Assembly (NCBI GenBank): GCA_000505065.1
Contig: AWSN01000001.1
Location: forward strand, 339,647-403,646
Source: Parcubacteria bacterium RAAC4_OD1_1
GTDB taxonomy: Bacteria; Patescibacteriota; Minisyncoccia; Phycocordibacterales; UBA9973
Length of the DNA: 64,000 nucleotides
Reading direction: 5' to 3'
This document shows positions 34,214 to 53,744 of the stretch, in pieces (the stretch's first letter is position 1; every line of letters begins with the position of its first letter). The translations under genes were made by a program, and so were the position numbers. The notes under the pieces were generated by a model. That model made no database searches. It had not been told where the DNA came from and was given only the letters and a program-made list of their open reading frames with translations.

Positions 34214-36007
34214 ATGCATAATTTAATCTCATTTCTAAAAGAATTTAAATTTTATAAAAAAGATGAAATCTTAGAAAGCATAGCATCTTTCAAAAAAAGA
34301 GAGCTTTTGTTATTCATATCTATTTTTATAGTAACTTTTACATCATTTGTATTACTTATAAGTAAAATAAACAATACTTTTAGCATAGAAGTACCTACTG
34401 ATGGTGGTAGTGTAACCGAGGGTATTATAGGTATGACAAATCTAGTAAATCCAGTACTTGCCACTTCTGATGCAGATAAAGATTTAACCCTACTCGTATA
34501 TTCAGGGTTAATGAGAAAAAGCATAGATGGTACCCTAATCCCAGATCTAGCAGAAGAATACCCCACCATATCTACAGATGGCAAAACTTATACATTTAAA
34601 ATACGAGGTGATGCAAAATTTCATAATGGCGTTGAAGTTAAATCAGATGATATAATTTTTACAATAGAAAAAATTAAAGACTCTTCAATAAAAAGTCCAA
34701 AGAAAATAATTTGGGATAATATAAATATTAAAAAAATAGATGAAAAAACAATAGAATTTATTCTTCCAGAACCATATATATACTTCTTAGATAACACCAC
34801 ACTAGGTATACTTCCATCTTCTTTATGGAAAAAGGTAAATTCTTCAGAATTTGGAATCTCACCTTTAAACATAAAAGCTGTAGGTTCTGGTCCATATAAA
34901 ATAAAATCAGTTAAAAAAGACAACGATGGGATACCAGAAAAATATGAATTAGAAAGTTTTAATAATTTTACACTCGGTAAACCTCACATCAAATATCTCA
35001 CCATTATATCTTATGCAAATGAAAAAGATCTCATCAAAGCTCTAAATTCTGGATCTATAGATCAAGCTAATGGTATAAGTGCAAATAACATAAAAAATAT
35101 AAATGAGAATGATTTCAATATTACAACAGCAACACTCTCTAGATTATTTGGATTATTTTTTAATAATACAGACAACAAAATATTAGAAGATACATCTGTA
35201 ATTAAAGCAATAAACCTAAGTTTGGACAGAAATATTATAATAGAACAAGTCTTGGGTGGGTATGGTACCCCCATAAACAACCCTGTTCCAGAAAGTATCG
35301 TCAACTATAACGACAATATCCTCTCAAATAAAATTGAAGCTGTAAGTTTATTAGAAAAAGCAGGATGGACACTAAGAGAAGATGGTTTTAGAGCAAAAGG
35401 AGGAGATGTCGTGACCACTCAAACTAAAAAAGTAAATGGCAAAACAATAAAACAAGAAGTAAAAACCAATACTCCACTTACTAATCTTGTAATATCCATA
35501 ACCACAGGCGACACTCCAGAATTAAGAACTACAGCAATACTCGTCAAAGAACAATTAGAGCAAATAGGTATAAAAGTTGAAATTAAAAAAGTTTTTGAAA
35601 CAGGACAATTAAATCAAATAATAAGAGATCGTGATTATGAAGTATTACTTTTTGGACAAGTAGTAAACAATGAATCTGATCTTTATTCATTCTGGCATTC
35701 ATCTCAAAAGAATGATCCGGGGTTAAATATTGCAATGTATAATAATAAAAAAGTTGATACATTATTAGAATCTGTTCAAAATATATTATCTTTTGAACAG
35801 AGATTACCAAAATATGAGGATTTGTATAAAGAATTTAATTTAAACATTCCTGCAGTATTTATATACTCACCAAAATATTTATATATAACATCAAAGAAAT
35901 TAAATAACGTGTCCTTAGACACAATAAGAACTCAGTCAGACAGATTCCTATCTATATACGAATGGTATGCAGACAAAGATAATGTTTGGAAAGTTTTTGA
36001 AAAATAA
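34214..36007 (+). CDS. ABC transporter substrate-binding protein, family 5 (peptide/nickel type)
   Basis: N-terminal anchor, SBP_bac_5-like core (FHNGVEVKSDDIIFTIE...). Confidence 0.75.
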   Translation: MHNLISFLKEFKFYKKDEILESIASFKKRELLLFISIFIVTFTSFVLLISKINNTFSIEVPTDGGSVTEGIIGMTNLVNPVLATSDADKDLTLLVYSGLMRKSIDGTLIPDLAEEYPTISTDGKTYTFKIRGDAKFHNGVEVKSDDIIFTIEKIKDSSIKSPKKIIWDNINIKKIDEKTIEFILPEPYIYFLDNTTLGILPSSLWKKVNSSEFGISPLNIKAVGSGPYKIKSVKKDNDGIPEKYELESFNNFTLGKPHIKYLTIISYANEKDLIKALNSGSIDQANGISANNIKNINENDFNITTATLSRLFGLFFNNTDNKILEDTSVIKAINLSLDRNIIIEQVLGGYGTPINNPVPESIVNYNDNILSNKIEAVSLLEKAGWTLREDGFRAKGGDVVTTQTKKVNGKTIKQEVKTNTPLTNLVISITTGDTPELRTTAILVKEQLEQIGIKVEIKKVFETGQLNQIIRDRDYEVLLFGQVVNNESDLYSFWHSSQKNDPGLNIAMYNNKKVDTLLESVQNILSFEQRLPKYEDLYKEFNLNIPAVFIYSPKYLYITSKKLNNVSLDTIRTQSDRFLSIYEWYADKDNVWKVFEK

Positions 36008-36008
36008 A

Positions 36009-38078
36009 ATGAATACACAAAAAAATATAAAACATAATAACAATATAAATAGAAAGAATTTTATCAATAGAAATAAAATAAACTCCATAAGAGTACTTCA
36101 TAAAGAAGGGTCTCCTGCCAAGATGCCTATAATTAAAAGTAGCTCTTTTGTTGCTGAAAGTATAAATGCATTTAAAAAAGAAGATTCACGTACAATACAA
36201 AATATACAAAAAAAAATAGTACACTCAAATAATCATATAAACAACAATCCAAATAATAAAAATAATAGAAATATTAAGGGTAGCTATCAATATTCCACAA
36301 ATAGAAGACCAAAACATAACAATATAGATACGTCTTCAAATAAAAATCTAAATAATAGAGATATCTTTAAAAGAAAAACAAACCTTATACCAAAACCTGA
36401 TGCTGGAGTTATACGAATAATTCCACTAGGTGGAGTTGAAGAAATTGGTAAAAATATGACAGCTATTGAGATAGGAGAAGACATTATAGTTATAGATGCT
36501 GGTATGCAATTTAAAACAGAAGATACCCCAGGAATAGACTACATCATACCAAATACAACATATCTAGAAGAAAGAAAAGATAAAATAAGAGCAATGTTCG
36601 TCACTCATGGTCACCTAGACCATATAGGTGGTATACCTCTTGTCATGAGCAGAATTGGTAATCCCCCACTGTATTCTAGAAACTTAAGTATTTTGATGAT
36701 AAAAAAACGTCAAGAAGAATTTCCTCATCTTCCAGCACTCAATGTAAACATAGTGGAAAAAGACTCAGTAATATATGCTGGAAATATTAGGGTTAGATTC
36801 TTTGGTGTGACTCACACTGTTCCTGACTCAATGGGTCTCATAATAGAAACCCCTTATGGCTCAATAGTAACCCCAGGAGACTATAAACTCGATCAAATAG
36901 ATGGAAAAGTCACAGAAGAAGAGGAGAAAGAGTATTCTATTTTTGAAAAAGAGAAAGTTTTACTTTTACTTACTGATTCTACTAATATCGAAAATGAAGG
37001 TTTTGCACTACCTGAAGTAAAAGTCCATGAAGGTCTTAGTAAATTGATAAGAGGTATCAGTGGACGTATTATTATAGCAGCATTTGCTTCACACATAACT
37101 AGACTTGTAAAAGTTATAGAAGTTGCAGAATCTTTAGGTAAAAAAGTAATCCTAGACGGTAGATCACTTAAAACCAATATGGAAGTCTGTGAACAAGCAG
37201 GAATTTTCAAACCAAAAAAAGGCACAATGATACCTCTTGAAGATGTAGAGAAATATCCTCCAAATAAAATTGTTATCTTGATGACAGGAGCCCAGGGTGA
37301 AGAATTTGCAGCATTAAATAGAGCAGCCAATAAGACCCATAAAAAATTTACAATCAGAAAAGGAGACACCATAATACTTTCTGCTTCTATTGTTCCAGGA
37401 AATGAAATGTCTGTTCAGCATTTAAAAGATAATCTTGCTCGTCACGGAGTAAGAATAATAAGTTATAGAACAAGTGAAGAATATATCCATGCAACAGGAC
37501 ATGGAAATCAAGAAGATATCAAATGGCTACACAATAAACTAAAAGCTAAATTCTTTATTCCTATACACGGGCATCATTCTATGCTTGTAAAACATAAAGA
37601 GCTTGCAATATCTTGGGGGGTAAAAGAAGAAAATATAATTGTCCCAGACAATGGTTCTATAATCGAAATCATAGATAATGGTAATAAAATAATTTTAAGA
37701 AAAGAAAAAGCTCCATCAGGTCCTATGCTGGTAGATGGTTTCTCTGTGGGAGATGAGCAAGATGTAGTTATAAGGGATAGAGTAATGCTTGCTCAAGATG
37801 GTATGTTTGTCCTTATTGCTACGATAGATTCATCAAATGGTAAACTCAAAAAATCTCCAGACATTATATCTCGTGGTTTTATATATTTAAAAGAAAATCA
37901 AGAATTACTTCATCAAGTAAGACTTATTGTAAAGAAAACTATTGAAGATGGTGCTAGAGGAATGCACCCTATAAATCTAGATGTTATAAAAACAAACCTA
38001 GGAGATAATGTTTCTAAATTCTTATATCAAAAAACAGCCAAAAGACCACTTGTAATCCCCGTATTATTAAATATATAA
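36009..38078 (+). CDS. rnj: ribonuclease J with about 140-aa Asn/Lys-rich N-terminal extension
   Basis: Metallo-beta-lactamase motif HGHLDHIGG, beta-CASP and RNase J C-terminal domains; start set at ATG 36009 just after the upstream stop. Confidence 0.85.
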   Translation: MNTQKNIKHNNNINRKNFINRNKINSIRVLHKEGSPAKMPIIKSSSFVAESINAFKKEDSRTIQNIQKKIVHSNNHINNNPNNKNNRNIKGSYQYSTNRRPKHNNIDTSSNKNLNNRDIFKRKTNLIPKPDAGVIRIIPLGGVEEIGKNMTAIEIGEDIIVIDAGMQFKTEDTPGIDYIIPNTTYLEERKDKIRAMFVTHGHLDHIGGIPLVMSRIGNPPLYSRNLSILMIKKRQEEFPHLPALNVNIVEKDSVIYAGNIRVRFFGVTHTVPDSMGLIIETPYGSIVTPGDYKLDQIDGKVTEEEEKEYSIFEKEKVLLLLTDSTNIENEGFALPEVKVHEGLSKLIRGISGRIIIAAFASHITRLVKVIEVAESLGKKVILDGRSLKTNMEVCEQAGIFKPKKGTMIPLEDVEKYPPNKIVILMTGAQGEEFAALNRAANKTHKKFTIRKGDTIILSASIVPGNEMSVQHLKDNLARHGVRIISYRTSEEYIHATGHGNQEDIKWLHNKLKAKFFIPIHGHHSMLVKHKELAISWGVKEENIIVPDNGSIIEIIDNGNKIILRKEKAPSGPMLVDGFSVGDEQDVVIRDRVMLAQDGMFVLIATIDSSNGKLKKSPDIISRGFIYLKENQELLHQVRLIVKKTIEDGARGMHPINLDVIKTNLGDNVSKFLYQKTAKRPLVIPVLLNI

Positions 38079-39940: not shown

Positions 39941-39985
39941 AAATCTCCCAGATAGCGCCTTAAGCGCTATCTGGGAGATTTTTAG
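39941..39985. terminator. bidirectional terminator
   Basis: aaatctcccagatagcgccttaagcgctatctgggagattttt. Confidence 0.6.
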
Positions 39986-39999
39986 TAATTTTTTATTTA

Positions 40000-42435
40000 C
40001 TAATTTACACAAAAACTTTGTAATTTAGAATTGGCTACACTTCTAGTCTCACTACCAACGATTCCATCATTTTTCAAATTATTATCAATCTGGAATTGTC
40101 GAACAGCAAATAGTGTAATGCTACCATATTTACCATCAATTCCACTACTATCCAAATATCCAAGCTTATTTAATATAGTTTGTAACGATTTAACTTGACT
40201 TGTATAACTAGAACCAAAATACAAATTATTACTTATAAAATTACTATTACAAGAAACATTACCCTCTAATATATTAAAGACTAAATCTTTTTCAGATTTA
40301 GTAGAGACGTAGTCTCCAGTCAATAACCCACCAACATGGCAACCCTTATCACCAATATCTATAAAACCATCTCCATCGTTATCTTTTTTATCACGACATT
40401 CTGAAGATGTAAAAAACATTGGAGAAATTGTAGTATTTGAAGGAGTTGTAGGTGCAACATTGCCTATTACGCTAGACACACACTTCTCTGACCATCTTGC
40501 ATTAAGAGTTGTTCTGGTATTTAATCCAACCACACCATCTACATATAATCCATATTTTGTTTGGAATGATTTAACTGCATTGTATGTTGCAATCCCAAAT
40601 TTACCATCTACATTAGTTGTACTTAAATATCCTAATCCATTTAACATCTTTTGTAATACATCTACTTGGCTACCTGACATACCAGATTCTAGTTTTTCAG
40701 TTAATTGTGCTCCGCAAGTCATGTCGTTAATGAAGGTGGAAGTATTTTCATATTTTTTAATCAAGATTTCTCTTTCATCTGATTGATCTGATGAAACATT
40801 CTTACCTCTTATTTTTAAAACTAAATTATAGGTAGAAGTATTATCAACTTTTGGTATGATAATTGTTTCTTCTCCATCATTTAAAGTAGAAATACTATAC
40901 GGATATGTATTATTTGGGCCCATAATAACTAAAGCAAGTTCATCTGTAGGCAAAAAACCACCAGATGTTTTCCATTTTACAGTAATTTTATCTCCAGTCT
41001 TAAACGTCTCCCCTCCATTTGGATAAGTTACAGTTATTAAAGGAGTTGTATCGTTATCACTTGCACATTTTGAATTCCACTTTGCTCTTAAAGCATCTAC
41101 TGTGAGTTTACCTGCTATTCCATCAGCTGTTAGATTATTGTCTTTCTGAAATAGTCCTACAGAATATTGGGTCAAACCATTCCAAACATATTTACCATCA
41201 ATATCTCCATACATATAACCAAAAACACTAAGCATCTTTTGTAAAGAAGTTATTTCACTAGAAGAAGCAGGAAAACCGTACTGCTGACTAAAAACAACAG
41301 AACCCCTATTTGTTTTTAAATATTCAAAATCAGGAAATCCAGCTTTACATACCTCATCTAAACTAACAGATGAATTTAATTTTGGAGCAGTGTCAACGGT
41401 TCCACAAGATATATATTGATACCAATCTCCTGAGCAAGTCTTACCACCGTTTTGAGGAGTTGGATTTGTACATCTTCTTACTTGTTTTTGTTGATTATTT
41501 GTACAAGTTCCAGAGTCTATCCAAGCACTCCACCCTCCATCAATAGGATCAGTTATAGTCCCAGTTCTCTGAACACATTTTGTAGACATTGTTGTATAAG
41601 TATATGCTCCTGCATTCCCTGCTGCTCTCCATGTATCTATAGTTTCATTTTTGTAATTCTCTACACTTATAGTATTTGGATACCATCTTTTACAATATGT
41701 AAGTTTATCTAAAATCGCACCTGATGATCCATCTGGATCAGTTTGCCAAACACCAGATCCATCAGTAGAAATATGCTGATTAACTTTTCCCCACCAATAC
41801 ATTATACGAGGAGTTGGATCGTTTACATCGGTAGTAGCAGTACAACTTACACTTCTTCCAATACTTCCTACACACCCTGCTCCACCATTTGCTGGAGCAG
41901 GGTTTGTACAAGATCTGATCTGTGGTTTCATTCCATCAACACAATCTCCATAATCTGCCCAATCTGTCCAACCACCAGGAACTGCAACAGCAGTATTTGC
42001 TGATTTTGTTTCAGAAGTTAGCTGTACACATTTGAAAGACATTTTAGTTCCAGTGTATGCTCCTCTATTTCCTGCAGCTCTCCAAGTATCTATTGTTTCA
42101 TTTTTATAATCTTCTACAGAAACAGTATTGGTCCAAAATTTTTTACAATAAGTAAGCTTATCTAAATTAGCACCTGAGGATCCATCAGAGTCTGTCTGCC
42201 AAACACCATTACTATCTATATGTTGGTTCACCATACCCCACCAATACATTATACGAGGAGTCATATCATTTGTAGCAGAAAGAGCTGTAGCCATCTGACT
42301 ACCTTTAAGTAAAGCAATCTGTACCCTTAATTCACCCACTTCTTTTTTGAGATCATCTAAAAGTGAAGCATCTGCAAACTTCACAAAACTAAAAACTAAA
42401 ACAAAAGAAACCAATCCGACTAAAAATTTTTTCAT
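40000..42435 (-). CDS. large secreted multidomain protein: signal peptide, 2x novel MYWWG-VNQH repeat domain, 2x thrombospondin-type-1-like repeat, Kre9/KNH-like beta-sandwich, 3x peptidoglycan-binding domain
   Basis: TPRIMYWWG(K/M)VNQHI...TYCKK(F/W)(W/Y)...ETIDTWRAAGN...KCVQ occurs twice. WxxWxxC...RxCTNP(A/T)PxNGGxxCxG occurs twice. Three LQKMLxxxGY..DGKFG..T..AVxxFQ PG_binding_1 repeats. Also a CRDKKDNDGDGFIDIGDKGC Ca-binding-like motif. Confidence 0.8.
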   Translation of the reverse strand: MKKFLVGLVSFVLVFSFVKFADASLLDDLKKEVGELRVQIALLKGSQMATALSATNDMTPRIMYWWGMVNQHIDSNGVWQTDSDGSSGANLDKLTYCKKFWTNTVSVEDYKNETIDTWRAAGNRGAYTGTKMSFKCVQLTSETKSANTAVAVPGGWTDWADYGDCVDGMKPQIRSCTNPAPANGGAGCVGSIGRSVSCTATTDVNDPTPRIMYWWGKVNQHISTDGSGVWQTDPDGSSGAILDKLTYCKRWYPNTISVENYKNETIDTWRAAGNAGAYTYTTMSTKCVQRTGTITDPIDGGWSAWIDSGTCTNNQQKQVRRCTNPTPQNGGKTCSGDWYQYISCGTVDTAPKLNSSVSLDEVCKAGFPDFEYLKTNRGSVVFSQQYGFPASSSEITSLQKMLSVFGYMYGDIDGKYVWNGLTQYSVGLFQKDNNLTADGIAGKLTVDALRAKWNSKCASDNDTTPLITVTYPNGGETFKTGDKITVKWKTSGGFLPTDELALVIMGPNNTYPYSISTLNDGEETIIIPKVDNTSTYNLVLKIRGKNVSSDQSDEREILIKKYENTSTFINDMTCGAQLTEKLESGMSGSQVDVLQKMLNGLGYLSTTNVDGKFGIATYNAVKSFQTKYGLYVDGVVGLNTRTTLNARWSEKCVSSVIGNVAPTTPSNTTISPMFFTSSECRDKKDNDGDGFIDIGDKGCHVGGLLTGDYVSTKSEKDLVFNILEGNVSCNSNFISNNLYFGSSYTSQVKSLQTILNKLGYLDSSGIDGKYGSITLFAVRQFQIDNNLKNDGIVGSETRSVANSKLQSFCVN

Positions 42436-42489
42436 AATATTTACAATAAAACTAATAATAATCGACTAATAACAAAAAAATAATAAAAA

Positions 42490-44025
42490 CTAATCTAAAT
42501 TTAATAACTCAAATTTAATACGGTCCAAAACTTCATCATTATTTATAAATCCACTAACATTTAAATTATTATTTTTTTGATACTCAACGACAGCCAAACG
42601 TGTCTTCTCTCCATAAATTCCATCTATTTTATCTATATTATACCCTTTATCTTTTAAGATTTTCTGTAAAAGTTTTACATCATTACCAGACACTCCGACA
42701 ACTAAATCTCTATAAAAAGAAACATTTACTAAGTCTAATTCTTTATATTCCTGATTTTCTTGTTCTATAATTGGATTTATTTCAGGAATAGTGGCTACAC
42801 AATCAACTTCTTCATTATTAATATCAAAACACATATTTTCATTATCTACAATAGGCAATACAGAAGGTAATGTTTTCTCAGAAATACATTCTATAGACAT
42901 CTTTGTGGCTGTATAAGCTCCGGTATTTTTAACCGCTCTCCATGTATTGATAGTTTCATTTTTATAGTCTTTTGTATTTGTGATATTTAATTTTGGATAC
43001 CATTTCTTACAATATGTAAGTTTATCTAAATTTGCTCCAGAAACTCCATCTGGGTCTGTTTGCCAAACTCCAGCATTATCTATATGCTGATTAACTTTTC
43101 CCCACCAATACATTATACGAGGAGTTTTATCTATGTTTGTATCAATAATTGTCGGTAAACATTCTTTTCCTGTTATGGTGCTAAATTTATTTCCAAAACC
43201 ACAACCAATATATGGGTCTACAATAACTAATGTATCATCTTCTGGGTCTCCAGGTTGTACACATTTCATAGACATTTTTGTAGATGTCCAATTATTTTTA
43301 TTTCCTCTTTCTTTCCACTTATCGATAGTTTCCAATTTATGATCAATAACTTTTATAGTCTTTGGATACCATTTCTTACAATATGTAAGTTTATCTAAAT
43401 TTGCTCCAGAGACTCCATCTGGGTCTGTTTGCCAAACTCCAGTATTGTCTATATGCTGATTAACCTTACCCCACCAATACATTATACGAGGAGTTTTATC
43501 ATTTGTGGTAATTTTATCAGTAATAATTTTAGTTTTATCTATAGATAATTTGTAAATTAAGCCACCAGGATTTAATTTTGGATCTGTGTGAATTGAAGAA
43601 TTATTTACAACTGTAAATTTTACAGTATTATTCCCTTGTTTTAAATAATTTGTTATATCTCTTGTTGTGATATAAGTAAACGCACTACCTAAATAATTAT
43701 CTTCAAAAATAATATTGTTAATTTCTAGTATATAACCATTATCTGTAGCAAATTGTATTTGTGCTGAATTAATATCATTTTCTATGGTAAAAGTTTTTGT
43801 AAAAGTTTCAACTTCTCCATTTATAGAGTTAGAAGCATAATATGAATTCCATATCCAAAAAGCACCAGGGATACTAACCCATTTTTTATTTTTCCATGCA
43901 TAAACAGCATTGTCTCCATTACTTAATATATCTGTATTATCACTATATATATTTAAAGTATCAGCACTAGAAATACCTCCAAATGAAATAAATAAAACAA
44001 ATATGAATAATATTTTTTTTAGCAT
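42490..44025 (-). CDS. secreted paralogue: signal peptide, beta-sandwich/lectin-like N-domain, 2x MYWWGKVNQH repeat domain, C-terminal peptidoglycan-binding domain
   Basis: Two copies of TPRIMYWWGKVNQHIDN(T/A)GVWQTDPDGVSGANLDKLTYCKKWYPK...ETI(D/N)(K/T)W...KCVQ/ECIS; C-terminal LQKILKDKGYNIDKIDGIYGEKTRLAVVEYQ. Confidence 0.8.
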   Translation of the reverse strand: MLKKILFIFVLFISFGGISSADTLNIYSDNTDILSNGDNAVYAWKNKKWVSIPGAFWIWNSYYASNSINGEVETFTKTFTIENDINSAQIQFATDNGYILEINNIIFEDNYLGSAFTYITTRDITNYLKQGNNTVKFTVVNNSSIHTDPKLNPGGLIYKLSIDKTKIITDKITTNDKTPRIMYWWGKVNQHIDNTGVWQTDPDGVSGANLDKLTYCKKWYPKTIKVIDHKLETIDKWKERGNKNNWTSTKMSMKCVQPGDPEDDTLVIVDPYIGCGFGNKFSTITGKECLPTIIDTNIDKTPRIMYWWGKVNQHIDNAGVWQTDPDGVSGANLDKLTYCKKWYPKLNITNTKDYKNETINTWRAVKNTGAYTATKMSIECISEKTLPSVLPIVDNENMCFDINNEEVDCVATIPEINPIIEQENQEYKELDLVNVSFYRDLVVGVSGNDVKLLQKILKDKGYNIDKIDGIYGEKTRLAVVEYQKNNNLNVSGFINNDEVLDRIKFELLNLD

Positions 44026-44092
44026 TTTTTTATTATTATATTGATAAAAAACTATATATATTATACACCTTATAAAATCTTAGGTAAATAGT

Positions 44093-51836: not shown

Positions 51837-53744
51837 TTATTTTACAACCTTTTCATTTCCATATTGAAAATTAGGATCATTCTGTAAAAAAGTCGTAGAT
51901 GCTTGTTTTTCACTATTTACTTCTACTTCTGCAAAAGAATCAAATCCAGATAAGTAAATTCCTTTCATTATTGTGGGAACAGATCCTACCTGAGAAATAG
52001 AAGGTCTAAATGATATAATAAAAGAAACTTCTTTACTTGTGTCAAATCCGGTATTAGGTCTTACAGATCCCGCATTCCAAATTATTTCTCTAGTAGAATT
52101 GTTATAAGATACTGAGTCATTAGTACCTGAAGCCATTCCCACAAAATCTACATATTCTGGAAGCTCTGTTTTAGCCTGTGCATTATTAATAAAATTTGAA
52201 GTATTAGAAAGTGTCCAAGTTACAATGTATCTAGTCTCATTTTCAGCCTTAGGAGGTAAAGGACCTGAAAGATATTTTACAGAATTTGCAATTTGAAAAT
52301 CTGAAATTATTTTTATAGATTTTTTAACAAAATTATTTACTTCATCAAAAGACGTCCCTGTGGTAGGCTGTTTGCCTTTTATACTTACTTCAATGTTTAT
52401 CTGTGGATCTTTTATGCTTGTATTACCAATAAGTAAAGATGCGGGTTTGATATTGAAGTCGACAGTTCCACTTTCACCAGGCTCTATATCAGAAAGACTA
52501 GAAATAGTGTTCTTGCTCCAAATTATTTTATTATTTAAAGAATCAAAATATCCATTATATGGATTTACATTATTTTTATCAAAAACATTTCCAGAAAGTG
52601 TTGCTACAATCTCTGCATCTATTATCCTTGAAGGTAAATTATTCGCCCATACAAGAGATACATTTATGTTTCCATTTGAATAAGCAGAGGGTTCAAATTT
52701 TTCTTCCCCATTTACTAAAATTTTTGTTTCAAGAAATGGTTTTGTGATTGAAACTTTATGAAGAAAAGAATTATAAACCATCTCCACAATAGCGGGATTA
52801 TTCCTTCCTGTTGCTCCAGCATACACTCTAAAAGATTGCTCATCTCCCTCATTACCCACCATCATCCCTTTTATCTCAATTGAAAATGGTTTTGTTAAAG
52901 AGAGTTCTGATAAATTCCAAACAGAATTTCCAATAGTAGGAGAAGGAACAGCGTTTTCAAAGACGAAATTACTTGGGTAATATACCTGTACAATATTATT
53001 TCCTTCTGGTAATGTGGTATTTAAGCTAGTATTTATTTTTATAGAAAAATCCTGTTCATTTGTAACATCACTAGGAGCCGTAAGGGTAAGAGATAGTGGT
53101 GCCGAAGAAATAGTGACCGGATGCTCAATGGTCTTTGTTATGATAGCATTTGAACCCTCTGAGTGGTATTCTAGGCTCACTTTTACATTTCTCGTAGATT
53201 TTTCCTCTCCATATAAAGTCACATTTACATTTCTTATAACACTTTCGCCAGATTTAATCGTCCCAATAACATCTCTAGGAAGTCTCACTATATCAGTATT
53301 TTCATCACTAGCACCCTTAGGATATTCAATCAAAAGATTTGCAAATTCTAATTTGGCGCTATTTTTGTTTGTAATCTCTACTTGTAATTGCAACTCTTCT
53401 CCCCCTTTTGCAAAAGCATTACCAAGGACAAGTATATCAATCTTTTCACTGGAAACAGAAGAATCTCCATTATAAAATTTATAAACAGAAAATCCAACAG
53501 CAAACAAGAAAAACACAAGAGCTCCAATAAAAAACTTTTTTGAAAATGATGATTTTGGTTTTTCTATTTTATTTTGTCTTTTCATATTTTCTAATTCTTC
53601 TTTAGAATAATCATCTCTCCAACTATAAGGCACTTCATGCCCTACTCGATGAAGAACCCTATCTTTATGTCTTTCTGATATTGTATCTTCTTTATCATAC
53701 AATCTGCGTCTTAAGTCTTCTATTTTAGAATCTTTTTCATTCAT
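51837..53744 (-). CDS. large membrane-anchored extracytoplasmic protein, unknown function
   Basis: Basic cytoplasmic N-terminus, one TM (FFIGALVFFLFAVGF), then about 550 aa of predicted beta-rich extracellular domains. Confidence 0.5.
   Translation of the reverse strand: MNEKDSKIEDLRRRLYDKEDTISERHKDRVLHRVGHEVPYSWRDDYSKEELENMKRQNKIEKPKSSFSKKFFIGALVFFLFAVGFSVYKFYNGDSSVSSEKIDILVLGNAFAKGGEELQLQVEITNKNSAKLEFANLLIEYPKGASDENTDIVRLPRDVIGTIKSGESVIRNVNVTLYGEEKSTRNVKVSLEYHSEGSNAIITKTIEHPVTISSAPLSLTLTAPSDVTNEQDFSIKINTSLNTTLPEGNNIVQVYYPSNFVFENAVPSPTIGNSVWNLSELSLTKPFSIEIKGMMVGNEGDEQSFRVYAGATGRNNPAIVEMVYNSFLHKVSITKPFLETKILVNGEEKFEPSAYSNGNINVSLVWANNLPSRIIDAEIVATLSGNVFDKNNVNPYNGYFDSLNNKIIWSKNTISSLSDIEPGESGTVDFNIKPASLLIGNTSIKDPQINIEVSIKGKQPTTGTSFDEVNNFVKKSIKIISDFQIANSVKYLSGPLPPKAENETRYIVTWTLSNTSNFINNAQAKTELPEYVDFVGMASGTNDSVSYNNSTREIIWNAGSVRPNTGFDTSKEVSFIISFRPSISQVGSVPTIMKGIYLSGFDSFAEVEVNSEKQASTTFLQNDPNFQYGNEKVVK

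What the first reader, a model, noticed from the sequence alone, without database searches (positions are those of the whole stretch)
40000..44025. Tandem paralogous secreted proteins with a novel four-copy MYWWG-VNQH domain, thrombospondin-type-1-like repeats and peptidoglycan-binding domains
Two adjacent minus-strand genes (811 aa and 511 aa) both start with signal peptides. They share a roughly 95-aa domain that I cannot assign to any family I know. Its consensus is TPRIMYWWGKVNQHI..GVWQTDPDGSSGA.LDKLTYCKKWYP.T..V..YKNETIDTWRAAGN.GAYT.T.MS.KCVQ, with two invariant Cys. It occurs twice in each protein. In the larger protein each copy is followed by a motif matching the metazoan thrombospondin type 1 repeat (W-x2-W-x2-C ... 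R-x-C-T-N-P-[AT]-P-x-N-G-G-x2-C-x-G), which is rare in bacteria. The larger protein also has a Kre9/KNH-like beta-sandwich, a D-N-D-G-D-G-F-I-D calcium-binding-like motif, and three PG_binding_1 repeats. The smaller one has a lectin-like N-terminal beta-rich domain and one PG-binding domain. Peptidoglycan anchoring combined with adhesion/lectin-like modules would suit a cell-surface attachment or host-interaction system. Recent duplication suggests diversification.
Basis: partly seen in the sequence, partly recalled or inferred. Interest (0 to 1): 0.8.

Follow-up and report, generated by a model that had tools for sequence, protein, structure and literature searches.

The report
Bacterial surface proteins with APP-like domains

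Summary
Two minus-strand genes (811 aa, 40000-42435; 511 aa, 42490-44025) have signal peptides, four copies of an ~85-aa two-Cys domain, two TSR-like segments, and 3+1 PG_binding_1 domains.

The repeat is Pfam APP_N (PF02177), the growth-factor-like domain (GFLD) of amyloid precursor protein. It scores 60.1 and 37.6 bits against a cutoff of 22.1. A family profile hits only APP/APLP2 in the PDB (E=1.6e-16). The AlphaFold model (pLDDT 94.9) superposes on APP GFLD crystal structures (TM 0.83-0.91).

The TSR claim is supported. Both segments hit only animal TSR proteins (UNC5B 2.5e-14; 44% identity), although they fall below the Pfam cutoff.

The organism is Parcubacteria RAAC4_OD1_1 (CPR, Rifle sediment). 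The GFLD family is large in prokaryotes: 742 clusters at 50% identity and 139 sites in species-representative genomes, mainly CPR, DPANN, Poseidoniales and Myxococcota. It is always in secreted proteins, half of them with PG_binding_1 and some fused to pilins.

The likely function, which is inferred, is that of non-enzymatic adhesins anchored on the wall. I found no paper describing prokaryotic APP-GFLD homologues. The 2013 study of APP origins reports none in single-celled organisms.

The parts
42490..44025 (-). Gene B (511 aa; GenBank ETB63917.1). Order of modules: signal peptide, unassigned beta-rich domain, GFLD, Cys-loop linker, GFLD, Cys-loop linker, PG_binding_1.
   Evidence: ORF; Pfam APP_N 60.1 bits with 2 stretches, PG_binding_1 52.1 bits; identity of the record.
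40000..42435 (-). Gene A (811 aa; GenBank ETB63916.1). Order of modules: signal peptide, short helix, GFLD, TSR, GFLD, TSR, PG_binding_1, Ig-like domain, PG_binding_1, acidic Cys-flanked motif, PG_binding_1.
   Evidence: ORF; Pfam APP_N 37.6 bits, PG_binding_1 145.2 bits with 3 stretches; TSR HMM 86.5 and 92.7 bits.
43963..44025 (-). Signal peptide of B (aa 1-21).
   Evidence: Read from the sequence: KK n-region, hydrophobic core, S-S-A cleavage motif. Not run through SignalP.
43501..43962 (-). B's N-terminal beta-rich domain (aa 22-175), unassigned.
   Evidence: No homologues found. Weak hints of a rhamnosidase-type jelly roll: NF045579 22.8 bits against a cutoff of 50, PF08531 E=0.23, PDB 3w5m E=0.53. 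The single-sequence AF2 model failed (pLDDT 38.9; predicted all-beta).
43249..43497 (-). B GFLD copy 1 (APP_N-like, aa 177-259), pI 9.6.
   Evidence: Pfam APP_N 32.4 bits on its own; family HMM 136 bits; pI.
42874..43128 (-). B GFLD copy 2 (aa 300-384), pI 9.3. This is the copy that was modelled.
   Evidence: Pfam 37.5 bits on its own; AF2 pLDDT 94.9; Foldseek TM 0.83-0.91 to APP/APLP2 GFLD.
42721..42873 (-). B linker 2 (aa 385-435), acidic, with C399-x9-C409. Possibly the remnant of a deleted TSR.
   Evidence: The Cys spacing equals that of TSR C4-C5. BLAST aligns it to the C-terminal half of a TSR in the L001 orthologue. This is an inference.
42511..42708 (-). B PG_binding_1 domain (approx. 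aa 440-505).
   Evidence: Pfam residues 446-496, 52.1 bits.
42367..42435 (-). Signal peptide of A (aa 1-23).
   Evidence: Read from the sequence: KK, hydrophobic core, A-D-A cleavage motif.
42016..42264 (-). A GFLD copy 1 (aa 58-140).
   Evidence: Family HMM 130 bits. On its own it does not reach the Pfam cutoff.
41833..41982 (-). A TSR 1 (aa 152-201), 4 Cys.
   Evidence: phmmer against the PDB: UNC5B E=2.5e-14, and 27 of 28 hits are TSR proteins. No Pfam TSP_1 hit.
41563..41817 (-). A GFLD copy 2 (aa 207-291).
   Evidence: Pfam APP_N 23.8 bits on its own; family HMM 131 bits.
41395..41547 (-). A TSR 2 (aa 297-347), 4 Cys.
   Evidence: 44% identical to UNC5B TSR1, E=3e-15. Pfam TSP_1 15.6 bits, below the 21.6 cutoff.
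41071..41268 (-). A PG_binding_1 no. 1 (approx. aa 390-455), bracketed by C363 and C457.
   Evidence: One of the 3 Pfam stretches; Cys positions.
40741..41052 (-). A Ig-like beta-sandwich (aa 462-565).
   Evidence: Kre9_KNH 21 bits and Big_7 20.1 bits, both below cutoff. Kre9_KNH is significant in 7 of 52 relatives.
40486..40698 (-). A PG_binding_1 no. 2 (aa 580-650), bracketed by C574 and C652.
   Evidence: Pfam best stretch 587-644.
40330..40410 (-). A acidic motif C680-RDKKDNDGDGFIDIGDKG-C699.
   Evidence: NCBIfam acid_disulf_rpt 23.8 bits, below the cutoff of 41.
40012..40224 (-). A PG_binding_1 no. 3 (aa 738-808), bracketed by C729 and C809.
39941..39981 (-). Strong terminator-like hairpin (19-bp stem, 9 G-C pairs) 19 nt after A's stop codon, between convergent genes.
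44060..44088 (-). Promoter-like site TTTACC-17-TATAAT in the 96-nt gap between rpsR and B.
   Evidence: It is a consensus match only; the number of such sites in the region is no higher than in shuffles.

Best explanation
What it is (shown): A and B are Sec-exported, non-enzymatic, disulfide-stabilised modular proteins of the CPR bacterium Parcubacteria RAAC4_OD1_1. Their repeated domain is a prokaryotic, single-disulfide version of the growth-factor-like domain (GFLD, Pfam APP_N) of animal amyloid precursor protein. In A, each GFLD is followed by a four-Cys thrombospondin type 1 repeat. Both proteins end in PG_binding_1 modules. How it most likely works (inferred): after export, the PG_binding_1 modules tether the proteins non-covalently to the cell's own exposed peptidoglycan. 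The N-terminal GFLD, TSR and beta-sandwich modules project outward as binding heads. They recognise a ligand on another cell or surface, most plausibly a glycan or other surface polymer of the host or partner organism on which this metabolically dependent bacterium lives. The near-invariant polar cluster of the GFLD (W-x-G-K-V-N-Q-H ... W-x-T-D-P-D-G-x-S-G) is the candidate binding site. The basic hairpin tip (W-[RK]-x-[AR]-G-N) corresponds to APP's heparin-binding loop. B and A form a two-gene unit just downstream of rpsF-ssb-rpsR, ended by a strong terminator.
For: Domain identity. Pfam APP_N is above the cutoff for both proteins. phmmer and a family profile against the PDB hit only APP/APLP2 (8.4e-7 and 1.6e-16). 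The AF2 model has pLDDT 94.9, all 17 significant Foldseek hits are APP-family GFLDs (TM 0.83-0.91, rmsd 1.6-2.6 A), and the next hit has E=0.44. The two conserved Cys align with APP C73 and C117.

TSRs. The profile hits only TSR proteins (UNC5B 8e-21, TSP-1 1.7e-16). A's own segments do the same individually. The four repeats of the syntenic orthologue pass Pfam TSP_1 (E=3.7e-13).

Extracellular location and lack of enzyme activity. Both have signal peptides and neither has a TM segment or catalytic domain. Every module has an even number of Cys.

Adhesin logic from the family. Of 52 full-length relatives, 26 carry PG_binding_1. Others carry Ig-like/CARDB/PKD, Kelch, FG-GAP or InlB-type repeats, bacterial prepilin N-termini (N_methyl/T2SSG) or archaeal Pilin_N. 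A three-GFLD protein lies in a cluster with a prepilin gene and cadherin/Big_9/PKD proteins. PG_binding_1 accompanies the GFLD in 32 of 70 CPR/other-bacterial ORFs but in 0 of 13 archaeal or myxobacterial ones (Fisher p=0.0012). This fits anchoring to the producer's own exposed wall.

Organism. RAAC4 OD1 has a complete peptidoglycan pathway, no LPS genes and an inferred dependent lifestyle (PMC3812714). Parcubacteria are inferred ectosymbionts with diverse adhesion proteins (PMC4508563).

Charge. The window's GFLDs are basic (pI 7.8-9.6) within acidic proteins (pI 5.1-5.4).

Precedent. Apicomplexan parasites use TSP1-domain adhesins to attach to hosts (PMC3417536).

Real, conserved genes. The same gene order is found in a sister species, and the genes appear in three independent assemblies including the closed 693,530-bp genome.
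Against: No ligand, localisation or expression data exist, so the functional part rests on domain architecture. Basic charge is not a family-wide property (median pI 6.9; only 32% above 8). Heparin-like polyanion binding therefore cannot be generalised from APP. APP's disulfide-stapled heparin-binding hairpin (C98-C105) is absent here. The genes sit among housekeeping genes, not next to pilus or secretion genes. PG_binding_1 could equally bind a bacterial host's wall. The promoter-like site is no better than chance.
Confidence: 0.6

Rival explanations
1. Wall-organising or structural proteins. A and B bind the cell's own peptidoglycan, and the GFLD binds another component of the same envelope (a secondary wall polymer, S-layer or glycoprotein). 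Their role would be envelope architecture, not attachment to another organism.
For: PG_binding_1 is the commonest partner of the GFLD (26 of 52) and is restricted to lineages with an exposed wall. A has three PG-binding modules spread along the protein, which suits cross-linking. The genes lie in the core genome beside a ribosomal-protein operon and are syntenic in a sister species. RAAC4 genomes are rich in glycosyltransferases, which suggests glycosylated envelopes (PMC3812714).
Against: The same GFLD occurs in archaea and Myxococcota without PG_binding_1, as small free secreted proteins, and fused to pilins. These uses fit an outward-facing binder better. Module content changes rapidly between orthologues, which is typical of surface proteins that interact with other organisms.
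Confidence: 0.2
2. Secreted host-targeting factors. PG_binding_1 docks onto the peptidoglycan of a bacterial host or prey, and the GFLD/TSR modules act there, for example by blocking or recruiting wall enzymes, or through an activity of the GFLD's conserved polar cluster that has not been recognised.
For: PG_binding_1 is the targeting module of endolysins and cortex-lytic enzymes (PDB hits phiKZ gp144 and SleB). The GFLD has an unusually invariant set of polar residues (K, N, Q, H, D, D, S).
Against: No catalytic domain is detectable. The APP GFLD has no known enzymatic activity (established knowledge). The absence of PG_binding_1 from the 9 archaeal and 4 myxobacterial GFLD ORFs does not discriminate between own-wall and host-wall binding.
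Confidence: 0.12
3. One reading: the repeat is a lineage-specific orphan domain with no known relatives.
For: Only two of APP's six Cys are kept. Copy 1 of A fails the Pfam cutoff when scanned on its own.
Against: Pfam APP_N is above the cutoff for both proteins. Hits by sequence and fold are exclusively to the APP family. The family has 742 cluster representatives across Bacteria and Archaea.
Confidence: 0.01
4. Artefact or very recent import. The 'animal' modules come from eukaryotic contamination or chimeric assembly, or from a recent transfer from an animal.
For: The TSRs are strikingly close to animal TSRs (44% identity to UNC5B). Among GFLD proteins, TSRs occur only in this lineage.
Against: The genes are identical in a closed 693,530-bp genome, a 183-kb contig and a third assembly. 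GC content matches the neighbours, and the gene order is kept in a sister species. The GFLD is only 25-28% identical to APP and is widespread and diverse in prokaryotes. TSRs also occur in other dense, bacterial-type contigs together with dockerin, SpaA, InlB-repeat and PG_binding_1 modules. An older transfer of the TSR, in either direction, is not excluded.
Confidence: 0.04

Closest known systems
Growth-factor-like domain (GFLD; Pfam APP_N, PF02177) of the E1 region of animal APP/APLP1/APLP2 (structures 1MWP, 3KTM, 4PWQ, 7MRK)
   Same: Same fold (TM 0.83-0.91, rmsd 1.6-2.6 A). Homology covers the full domain length (E=1.6e-16). Shared motifs are G-[KR]-[VL]-N-x-H, W-x-[ST]-D-P-x-G, Y-C-x2-x-Y-P, I-x2-W and the final C. 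The C73-C117 disulfide is conserved. The beta-hairpin tip W-[RK]-x-[AR]-G-N aligns with APP W97-C-K-R-G-R.
   Different: One disulfide instead of three: APP C38 is a Trp here, and C62, C98 and C105 are absent. There is no adjoining copper-binding domain, E2 domain, TM segment or A-beta region. The domain occurs in tandem copies within wall-binding bacterial proteins. Identity to APP is 25-28%. Basic charge is not conserved across the family.
Thrombospondin type 1 repeat (TSR; Pfam TSP_1, PF00090) of thrombospondin-1, UNC5, properdin, complement C6-C9 and ADAMTS
   Same: The W-x2-W ... R-x-C-[TN]-N-P-x-P-x-N-G-G-x2-C-x-G ... C core is shared. Identity to UNC5B TSR1 is 44%. Only TSR proteins are hit in the PDB.
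   Different: A four-residue deletion removes the C-S-x-T-C-G segment and the last Cys is absent, leaving 4 of 6 Cys. This probably means the C2-C6 disulfide is lost, which is an inference. A's segments fall below the Pfam gathering score. The host is bacterial.
Apicomplexan TSR adhesins (TRAP/MIC2 family)
   Same: This is a works-like comparison only. A dependent or parasitic microbe displays 'animal-type' adhesion modules, including TSP1, on its surface for attachment (PMC3417536).
   Different: Those are eukaryotic type I membrane proteins linked to a gliding motor. Here the anchor is non-covalent PG_binding_1, and there is no vWA domain.
PG_binding_1-anchored wall proteins (SleB N-terminal domain, phiKZ gp144 endolysin, CtpB, L,D-transpeptidases)
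   Same: Same PG_binding_1 module, well above the Pfam cutoff (PDB hits).
   Different: Those proteins couple the module to a catalytic domain. A and B have none, and the GenBank name of B ('Gamma-D-glutamyl-(L)-meso-diaminopimelate peptidase I') is not supported.

Membership tests
APP_N / GFLD domain family (PF02177) | Match to the Pfam HMM above the gathering score (22.1 bits) | tested here: met
   B 60.1 bits and A 37.6 bits. Single copies score 37.5, 32.4 and 23.8; A copy 1 fails on its own but is 68-71% identical to the other copies.
APP_N / GFLD domain family (PF02177) | GFLD fold (N-terminal beta-hairpins, one helix, long C-terminal beta-hairpin) | tested here: met
   AF2 pLDDT 94.9. 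Foldseek TM 0.83-0.91 to 1MWP, 3KTM, 4PWQ, 7MRK and 7MQY; no other fold has E<0.4. This rests on a predicted, not a solved, structure.
APP_N / GFLD domain family (PF02177) | Three conserved disulfides (APP C38-C62, C73-C117, C98-C105) | tested here: not met
   Only the C73-C117 equivalents are present. 309 of 330 family instances have exactly 2 Cys. A prokaryotic member (P0056) also has the C38-C62-type pair.
APP_N / GFLD domain family (PF02177) | Heparin binding through the basic 96-110 loop | not testable with these tools
   The loop aligns and is partly basic (K/R at position 64 in 64% and at position 66 in 36% of instances). The window's copies have pI 7.8-9.6. Binding was not measured, and the family median pI is 6.9.
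APP protein family (APP/APLP/APPL/APL-1) | E1 (GFLD plus copper-binding domain), E2, single TM segment, and cytoplasmic YENPTY tail | tested here: not met
   Pfam finds only APP_N. There are no APP_Cu_bd, APP_E2 or APP_amyloid hits and no TM segment. A and B share a domain with APP but are not APP-family proteins.
Thrombospondin type 1 repeat (PF00090) | Match to the Pfam HMM above the gathering score (21.6 bits) | tested here: not met
   A TSR2 scores 15.6 bits (E=0.019) and A TSR1 gives no hit. The orthologous repeats in L001 do pass (E=3.7e-13).
Thrombospondin type 1 repeat (PF00090) | Significant and specific sequence similarity to solved TSRs | tested here: met
   A TSR1 against UNC5B E=2.5e-14, with 27 of 28 hits being TSR proteins. 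A TSR2 against UNC5B TSR1 is 44% identical, E=3e-15. The profile gives 8.2e-21.
Thrombospondin type 1 repeat (PF00090) | Trp ladder (W-x2-W) with stacking Arg, and six Cys | tested here: inconclusive
   W-x2-W and R-x-C are present in all six prokaryotic repeats, but only 4 Cys.
PG_binding_1 (PF01471) | Match to the Pfam HMM above the gathering score (23 bits) | tested here: met
   A 145.2 bits with 3 stretches; B 52.1 bits with 1 stretch. Peptidoglycan binding itself was not tested.
Kre9/KNH N-terminal Ig-like domain (PF10342) | Match above the gathering score (24.6 bits) | tested here: not met
   16.7 bits in the whole protein and 21 bits for the isolated segment. It is significant in 7 of 52 relatives, so this is probably an Ig-like beta-sandwich of that type.
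Acidic double-disulfide repeat (NF033662) / TSP3-like calcium-binding motif | Match above the cutoff (41 bits) | tested here: not met
   23.8 bits. There is no Pfam TSP_3 or TSP3_bac hit in A.
Gamma-D-glutamyl-(L)-meso-diaminopimelate peptidase I (GenBank name of B) | A peptidase catalytic domain | tested here: not met
   No peptidase family is found in Pfam or NCBIfam; only the PG-binding module is shared.

The most novel reading that the evidence does not exclude
The prokaryotic GFLD family, which is large, diverse and present in both Bacteria and Archaea, may be the evolutionary source of the N-terminal domain of animal APP. The domain would then have entered the animal stem lineage from prokaryotes, as other metazoan adhesion modules are thought to have done. 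If so, its near-invariant polar site (GKVNQH / TDPDGxSG, partly kept in APP as G-R-L-N-M-H / D-P-S-G) binds an ancestral ligand. Identifying that ligand in bacteria would point to the still-debated physiological ligand of the APP GFLD. The published view is that no APP-related sequences exist in single-celled organisms (PMC3660159).
Probability: 0.3. Interest if true: 0.75.

Novelty: new variant of a known kind. Interest (0 to 1): 0.5.

Why it matters
The repeat is not a new fold, but what it turned out to be is more interesting than an orphan domain would have been. The growth-factor-like domain of the Alzheimer amyloid precursor protein is treated in the literature as an animal invention. 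Here it has hundreds of prokaryotic relatives, concentrated in ultra-small, cell-attached lineages (CPR, DPANN) and always in secreted or surface proteins.

This gives three things. First, it gives a comparative handle on a domain whose physiological ligand in animals is still debated. Second, it gives candidate attachment proteins for CPR bacteria, whose host-recognition molecules are largely unknown. Third, it gives another case of 'metazoan' extracellular modules (GFLD, TSR) circulating in prokaryotes.

It also corrects a database annotation: protein B is not a peptidase.

Tried and rejected
1. B's N-terminal domain (aa 22-175). The word-indexed homologue search found nothing. A local jackhmmer over all fetched proteins and loci found only B itself and a collapsed variant. 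The single-sequence AF2 model was unusable (pLDDT 38.9), so no fold search was run. The 'lectin-like' label remains untested.

2. Pfam TSP_1 on A's segments is below threshold. I did not accept this as refutation, because direct and profile searches against solved TSRs are highly significant and specific.

3. Heparin or polyanion binding as a family-wide property is rejected, because the family median pI is 6.9.

4. P0030, a six-Cys form, was considered as a prokaryote-animal intermediate and rejected. Its 587-kb contig is gene-sparse and carries a CARD/ankyrin gene, so it is probably an animal exon. The hairpin-disulfide forms (P0064, P0096) could not be shown to be prokaryotic. P0064 lies next to a TCTP gene, which is a eukaryotic family. 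P0103, the all-six-Cys form, is not on record.

5. Literature. Four searches for prokaryotic APP-GFLD homologues or bacterial TSRs found nothing relevant. One further search was spoiled because 'APP_N' matched the mouse allele name AppNL. The library is limited to open-access papers.

6. The afdb50 fold library was not available, so the UniProt names of bacterial members could not be checked.

7. The word-indexed search returned only proteins of about the query's length. Distribution figures therefore come from the exhaustive search and the genome scan.

8. The direction of transfer between prokaryotes and animals was not resolved. I had no rooted phylogeny and too few animal sequences.

Full report
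**1. Observation**

Both begin with a canonical Sec signal peptide, read directly from the sequence. A family HMM finds four copies of the repeat in the whole window, two in each protein, at 130-136 bits each, and no others. The copies are 68-71% identical in protein and have two invariant Cys. PG_binding_1 is present three times in A (145 bits) and once in B (52 bits). In A, each repeat is followed by a W-x2-W...R-x-C-T-N-P-x-P-x-N-G-G segment.

**2. What the repeat is**

It is not an orphan. Pfam places it in APP_N (PF02177), the N-terminal heparin-binding or growth-factor-like domain (GFLD) of amyloid precursor protein.
- B scores 60.1 bits and A 37.6 bits, against a curated cutoff of 22.1.
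- Three of the four copies pass the cutoff on their own.
- A plain phmmer of B against all PDB sequences gives APP E1 as the best hit (8.4e-7).
- A profile of 34 prokaryotic members hits only APP and APLP2 chains (1.6e-16), across the whole GFLD.
- An AlphaFold2 model of B copy 2, built from that alignment, has pLDDT 94.9.
- In Foldseek, all 17 significant PDB hits are APP-family GFLDs (TM 0.83-0.91, rmsd 1.6-2.6 A, 25-28% identity). The next hit has E=0.44.

The two conserved Cys align with APP C73 and C117. APP C38 is replaced by the second Trp of MYWWG, and C62, C98 and C105 are missing.

**3. The TSR-like segments**

Pfam TSP_1 gives only 15.6 bits (cutoff 21.6) for the second segment and nothing for the first. 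However:
- The first segment alone hits UNC5B at 2.5e-14, and 27 of its 28 PDB hits are TSR proteins.
- The second segment is 44% identical to UNC5B TSR1 (E=3e-15).
- A profile of six prokaryotic repeats hits UNC5B (8e-21), thrombospondin-1 (1.7e-16), C6-C9, properdin and ADAMTS13, with no other significant hit (three unrelated chains at E=0.087-0.88).

The Pfam shortfall comes from a four-residue deletion that removes the CSxTCG segment and from the loss of the last Cys, leaving 4 of 6. These are genuine, reduced TSRs.

**4. Organism and context**

Exact look-ups identify the source as Parcubacteria (OD1) bacterium RAAC4_OD1_1. This is a closed 693,530-bp CPR genome from acetate-amended Rifle aquifer sediment (Kantor et al. 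2013, PMC3812714). A is ETB63916.1, annotated as hypothetical. B is ETB63917.1, annotated as 'Gamma-D-glutamyl-(L)-meso-diaminopimelate peptidase I'. That name is unsupported, since no peptidase domain is present.

The gene order is metG, tatD, rpsF, ssb, rpsR, B, A, followed by a convergent pseudouridine synthase gene. A 19-bp-stem hairpin follows A directly, and a promoter-like site lies in the 96-nt gap between rpsR and B. The surrounding genes are housekeeping genes, and there is no island or pilus cluster.

The genome paper reports complete peptidoglycan synthesis, no LPS genes, type IV pili and probable dependence on other organisms.

**5. The family**

An exhaustive profile search of 1.84 billion representatives finds 742 proteins at E<=1e-3 and 258 at E<=1e-30, with up to four copies per protein.

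In species-representative genomes there are 139 confirmed sites. Most are in Patescibacteria/CPR. Others are in DPANN archaea (Micrarchaeota, Aenigmatarchaeota, Woesearchaeota), Poseidoniales and Myxococcota.

Nearly all host ORFs start with signal peptides. Of 52 full-length proteins:
- 42 pass APP_N.
- 26 carry PG_binding_1.
- Others carry Kre9_KNH, CARDB, Big_7, PKD, Kelch, FG-GAP or InlB-type repeats, a C25 peptidase, Kazal domains, bacterial prepilin N-termini or archaeal Pilin_N.

One three-GFLD protein lies in a cluster with a prepilin gene and cadherin/Big_9/PKD proteins.

PG_binding_1 accompanies the GFLD in 32 of 70 CPR/other-bacterial ORFs and in none of 13 archaeal or myxobacterial ones (p=0.0012).

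Across 330 unique domain instances the motif W-x-G-K-V-N-Q-H ... W-x-T-D-P-D-G-x-S-G ... Y-C ... C is at least 90-95% conserved. 309 instances have exactly two Cys. The median pI is 6.9.

**6. Module shuffling**

The closest relative (L001) has the same gene order. Its B orthologue, however, reads signal peptide, GFLD x2-3, TSR x4, PG_binding_1. Only the first GFLD and the C-terminal PG-binding domain align with B.

Among about 230 GFLD proteins and loci, TSRs occur only in this small lineage.

Elsewhere, TSRs exist sporadically in bacterial-type ORFs together with dockerin, SpaA, InlB-repeat, beta-helix, papain and PG_binding_1 modules.

The four GFLD copies are 71-78% identical in DNA. B's two copies are 96.2% identical over the first ~135 nt and 57.4% after that, which indicates partial gene conversion or a partial recent duplication. 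Database variants with exactly one repeat unit removed exist for both proteins. These are either copy-number variants or assembly collapses.

**7. Mechanism**

Shown: the proteins are exported, modular, rich in paired Cys, without catalytic domains, and carry PG-binding modules.

Inferred: the PG_binding_1 modules hold the proteins on the cell's own exposed wall. The GFLD, TSR and beta-sandwich modules act as outward-facing binding heads towards a partner cell or surface.

Support comes from:
- the family's partner modules and pilin fusions;
- the restriction of PG_binding_1 to lineages with a wall;
- the dependent lifestyle of the organism;
- the basic character of the window's GFLDs (pI 7.8-9.6 within proteins of pI 5.1-5.4);
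- the precedent of TSP1 adhesins in apicomplexan parasites (PMC3417536).

Against it: there is no experimental evidence, charge is not conserved across the family, and APP's disulfide-stapled heparin-binding loop is absent.

The rivals are a role in organising the cell's own envelope, targeting of a host's wall, and the already refuted orphan-domain and contamination readings.

**8. Comparison and novelty**

A and B contain members of the APP_N domain family, but they are not APP-family proteins. They have no copper-binding domain, E2 domain, TM segment or tail.

The precomputed Pfam annotation of the public collection already tags both genes with PF02177, so the match is visible in databases. 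I found no paper that describes prokaryotic GFLD homologues. [quoted passage not shown]

I therefore rate this as a new variant of a known kind: a single-disulfide prokaryotic GFLD used in tandem in wall-anchored proteins, here combined with reduced TSRs.

The direction of transfer between prokaryotes and animals is unresolved. A prokaryotic member carries the C38-C62-type Cys pair. The hairpin-disulfide forms could not be assigned to prokaryotes.

Noticed in passing
window 42490-44025 (-): GenBank names protein B (ETB63917.1) 'Gamma-D-glutamyl-(L)-meso-diaminopimelate peptidase I'. No peptidase domain is present; only the PG_binding_1 module is shared. This is probably an annotation transferred from a partial match.
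   Followed up: yes
P0108 (388 aa) and P0001 (144 aa), compared with window B and A: Public assemblies contain versions of B and A in which exactly one GFLD repeat unit has been removed by recombination between the copies. These are either real copy-number variants or collapsed repeats in short-read assemblies.
   Followed up: partly
window 42721-42873 (-), B aa 385-435: B's second linker has C399-x9-C409, the same spacing as TSR Cys 4-5. It aligns with the C-terminal half of a TSR in the L001 orthologue, so it may be the remnant of a deleted TSR array.
   Followed up: partly
window 40012-41268 (-), protein A: Each of A's three PG_binding_1 modules is bracketed by a Cys pair (C363/C457, C574/C652, C729/C809), as if each module were stapled by a disulfide. 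Every module in both proteins has an even number of Cys.
   Followed up: no
window 42265-42366 (-), A aa 24-57; also P0026, L004, L018, L036: Directly after the signal peptide, A and several other family members share a short amphipathic motif (S-[LVI]-L-x-D-x-L...) that looks like a helix. Its role (oligomerisation or sorting) is unknown.
   Followed up: no
L163 (P0064) and L081 (P0030): GFLD homologues with extra APP-like Cys pairs lie on contigs that look eukaryotic. P0064 (three copies in one uninterrupted ORF) is next to a TCTP gene. P0030 is on a gene-sparse 587-kb contig next to a CARD/ankyrin gene. The domain may therefore also exist in microbial eukaryotes, which bears on its origin.
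   Followed up: partly
L162 3822-7841: A 1339-aa prokaryotic protein has three four-Cys GFLDs (including the APP C38-C62-type pair) plus cadherin-like/Big_9 repeats. It sits in a same-strand cluster with a prepilin (N_methyl) gene, an AF_1845-family gene and further cadherin/PKD proteins.
   Followed up: partly
L119, L123, L122, L092, L150, L120 (metagenome contigs): Thrombospondin type 1 repeats occur in long, uninterrupted ORFs with signal peptides on gene-dense contigs of up to 340 kb. They are combined with dockerin, SpaA, InlB B-repeat, beta-helix/NosD, papain protease or PG_binding_1. Prokaryotic TSRs are sporadic but not unique to this lineage.
   Followed up: partly
window 35967-38078 (+): The RNase J homologue carries an N-terminal extension of about 140 aa that is Asn/Lys-rich and of low complexity. 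Its ORF overlaps the upstream SBP_bac_5 gene by 41 nt.
   Followed up: no
window 51837-53744 (-): A 635-aa ORF has no Pfam match at E<=1e-5.
   Followed up: no
tool behaviour: The word-indexed protein search returned only proteins of roughly the query's length (<=149 aa for an 85-aa query; <=91 aa for a 52-aa query). It therefore missed all multi-domain relatives, which the exhaustive search and the genome scan recovered.
   Followed up: yes
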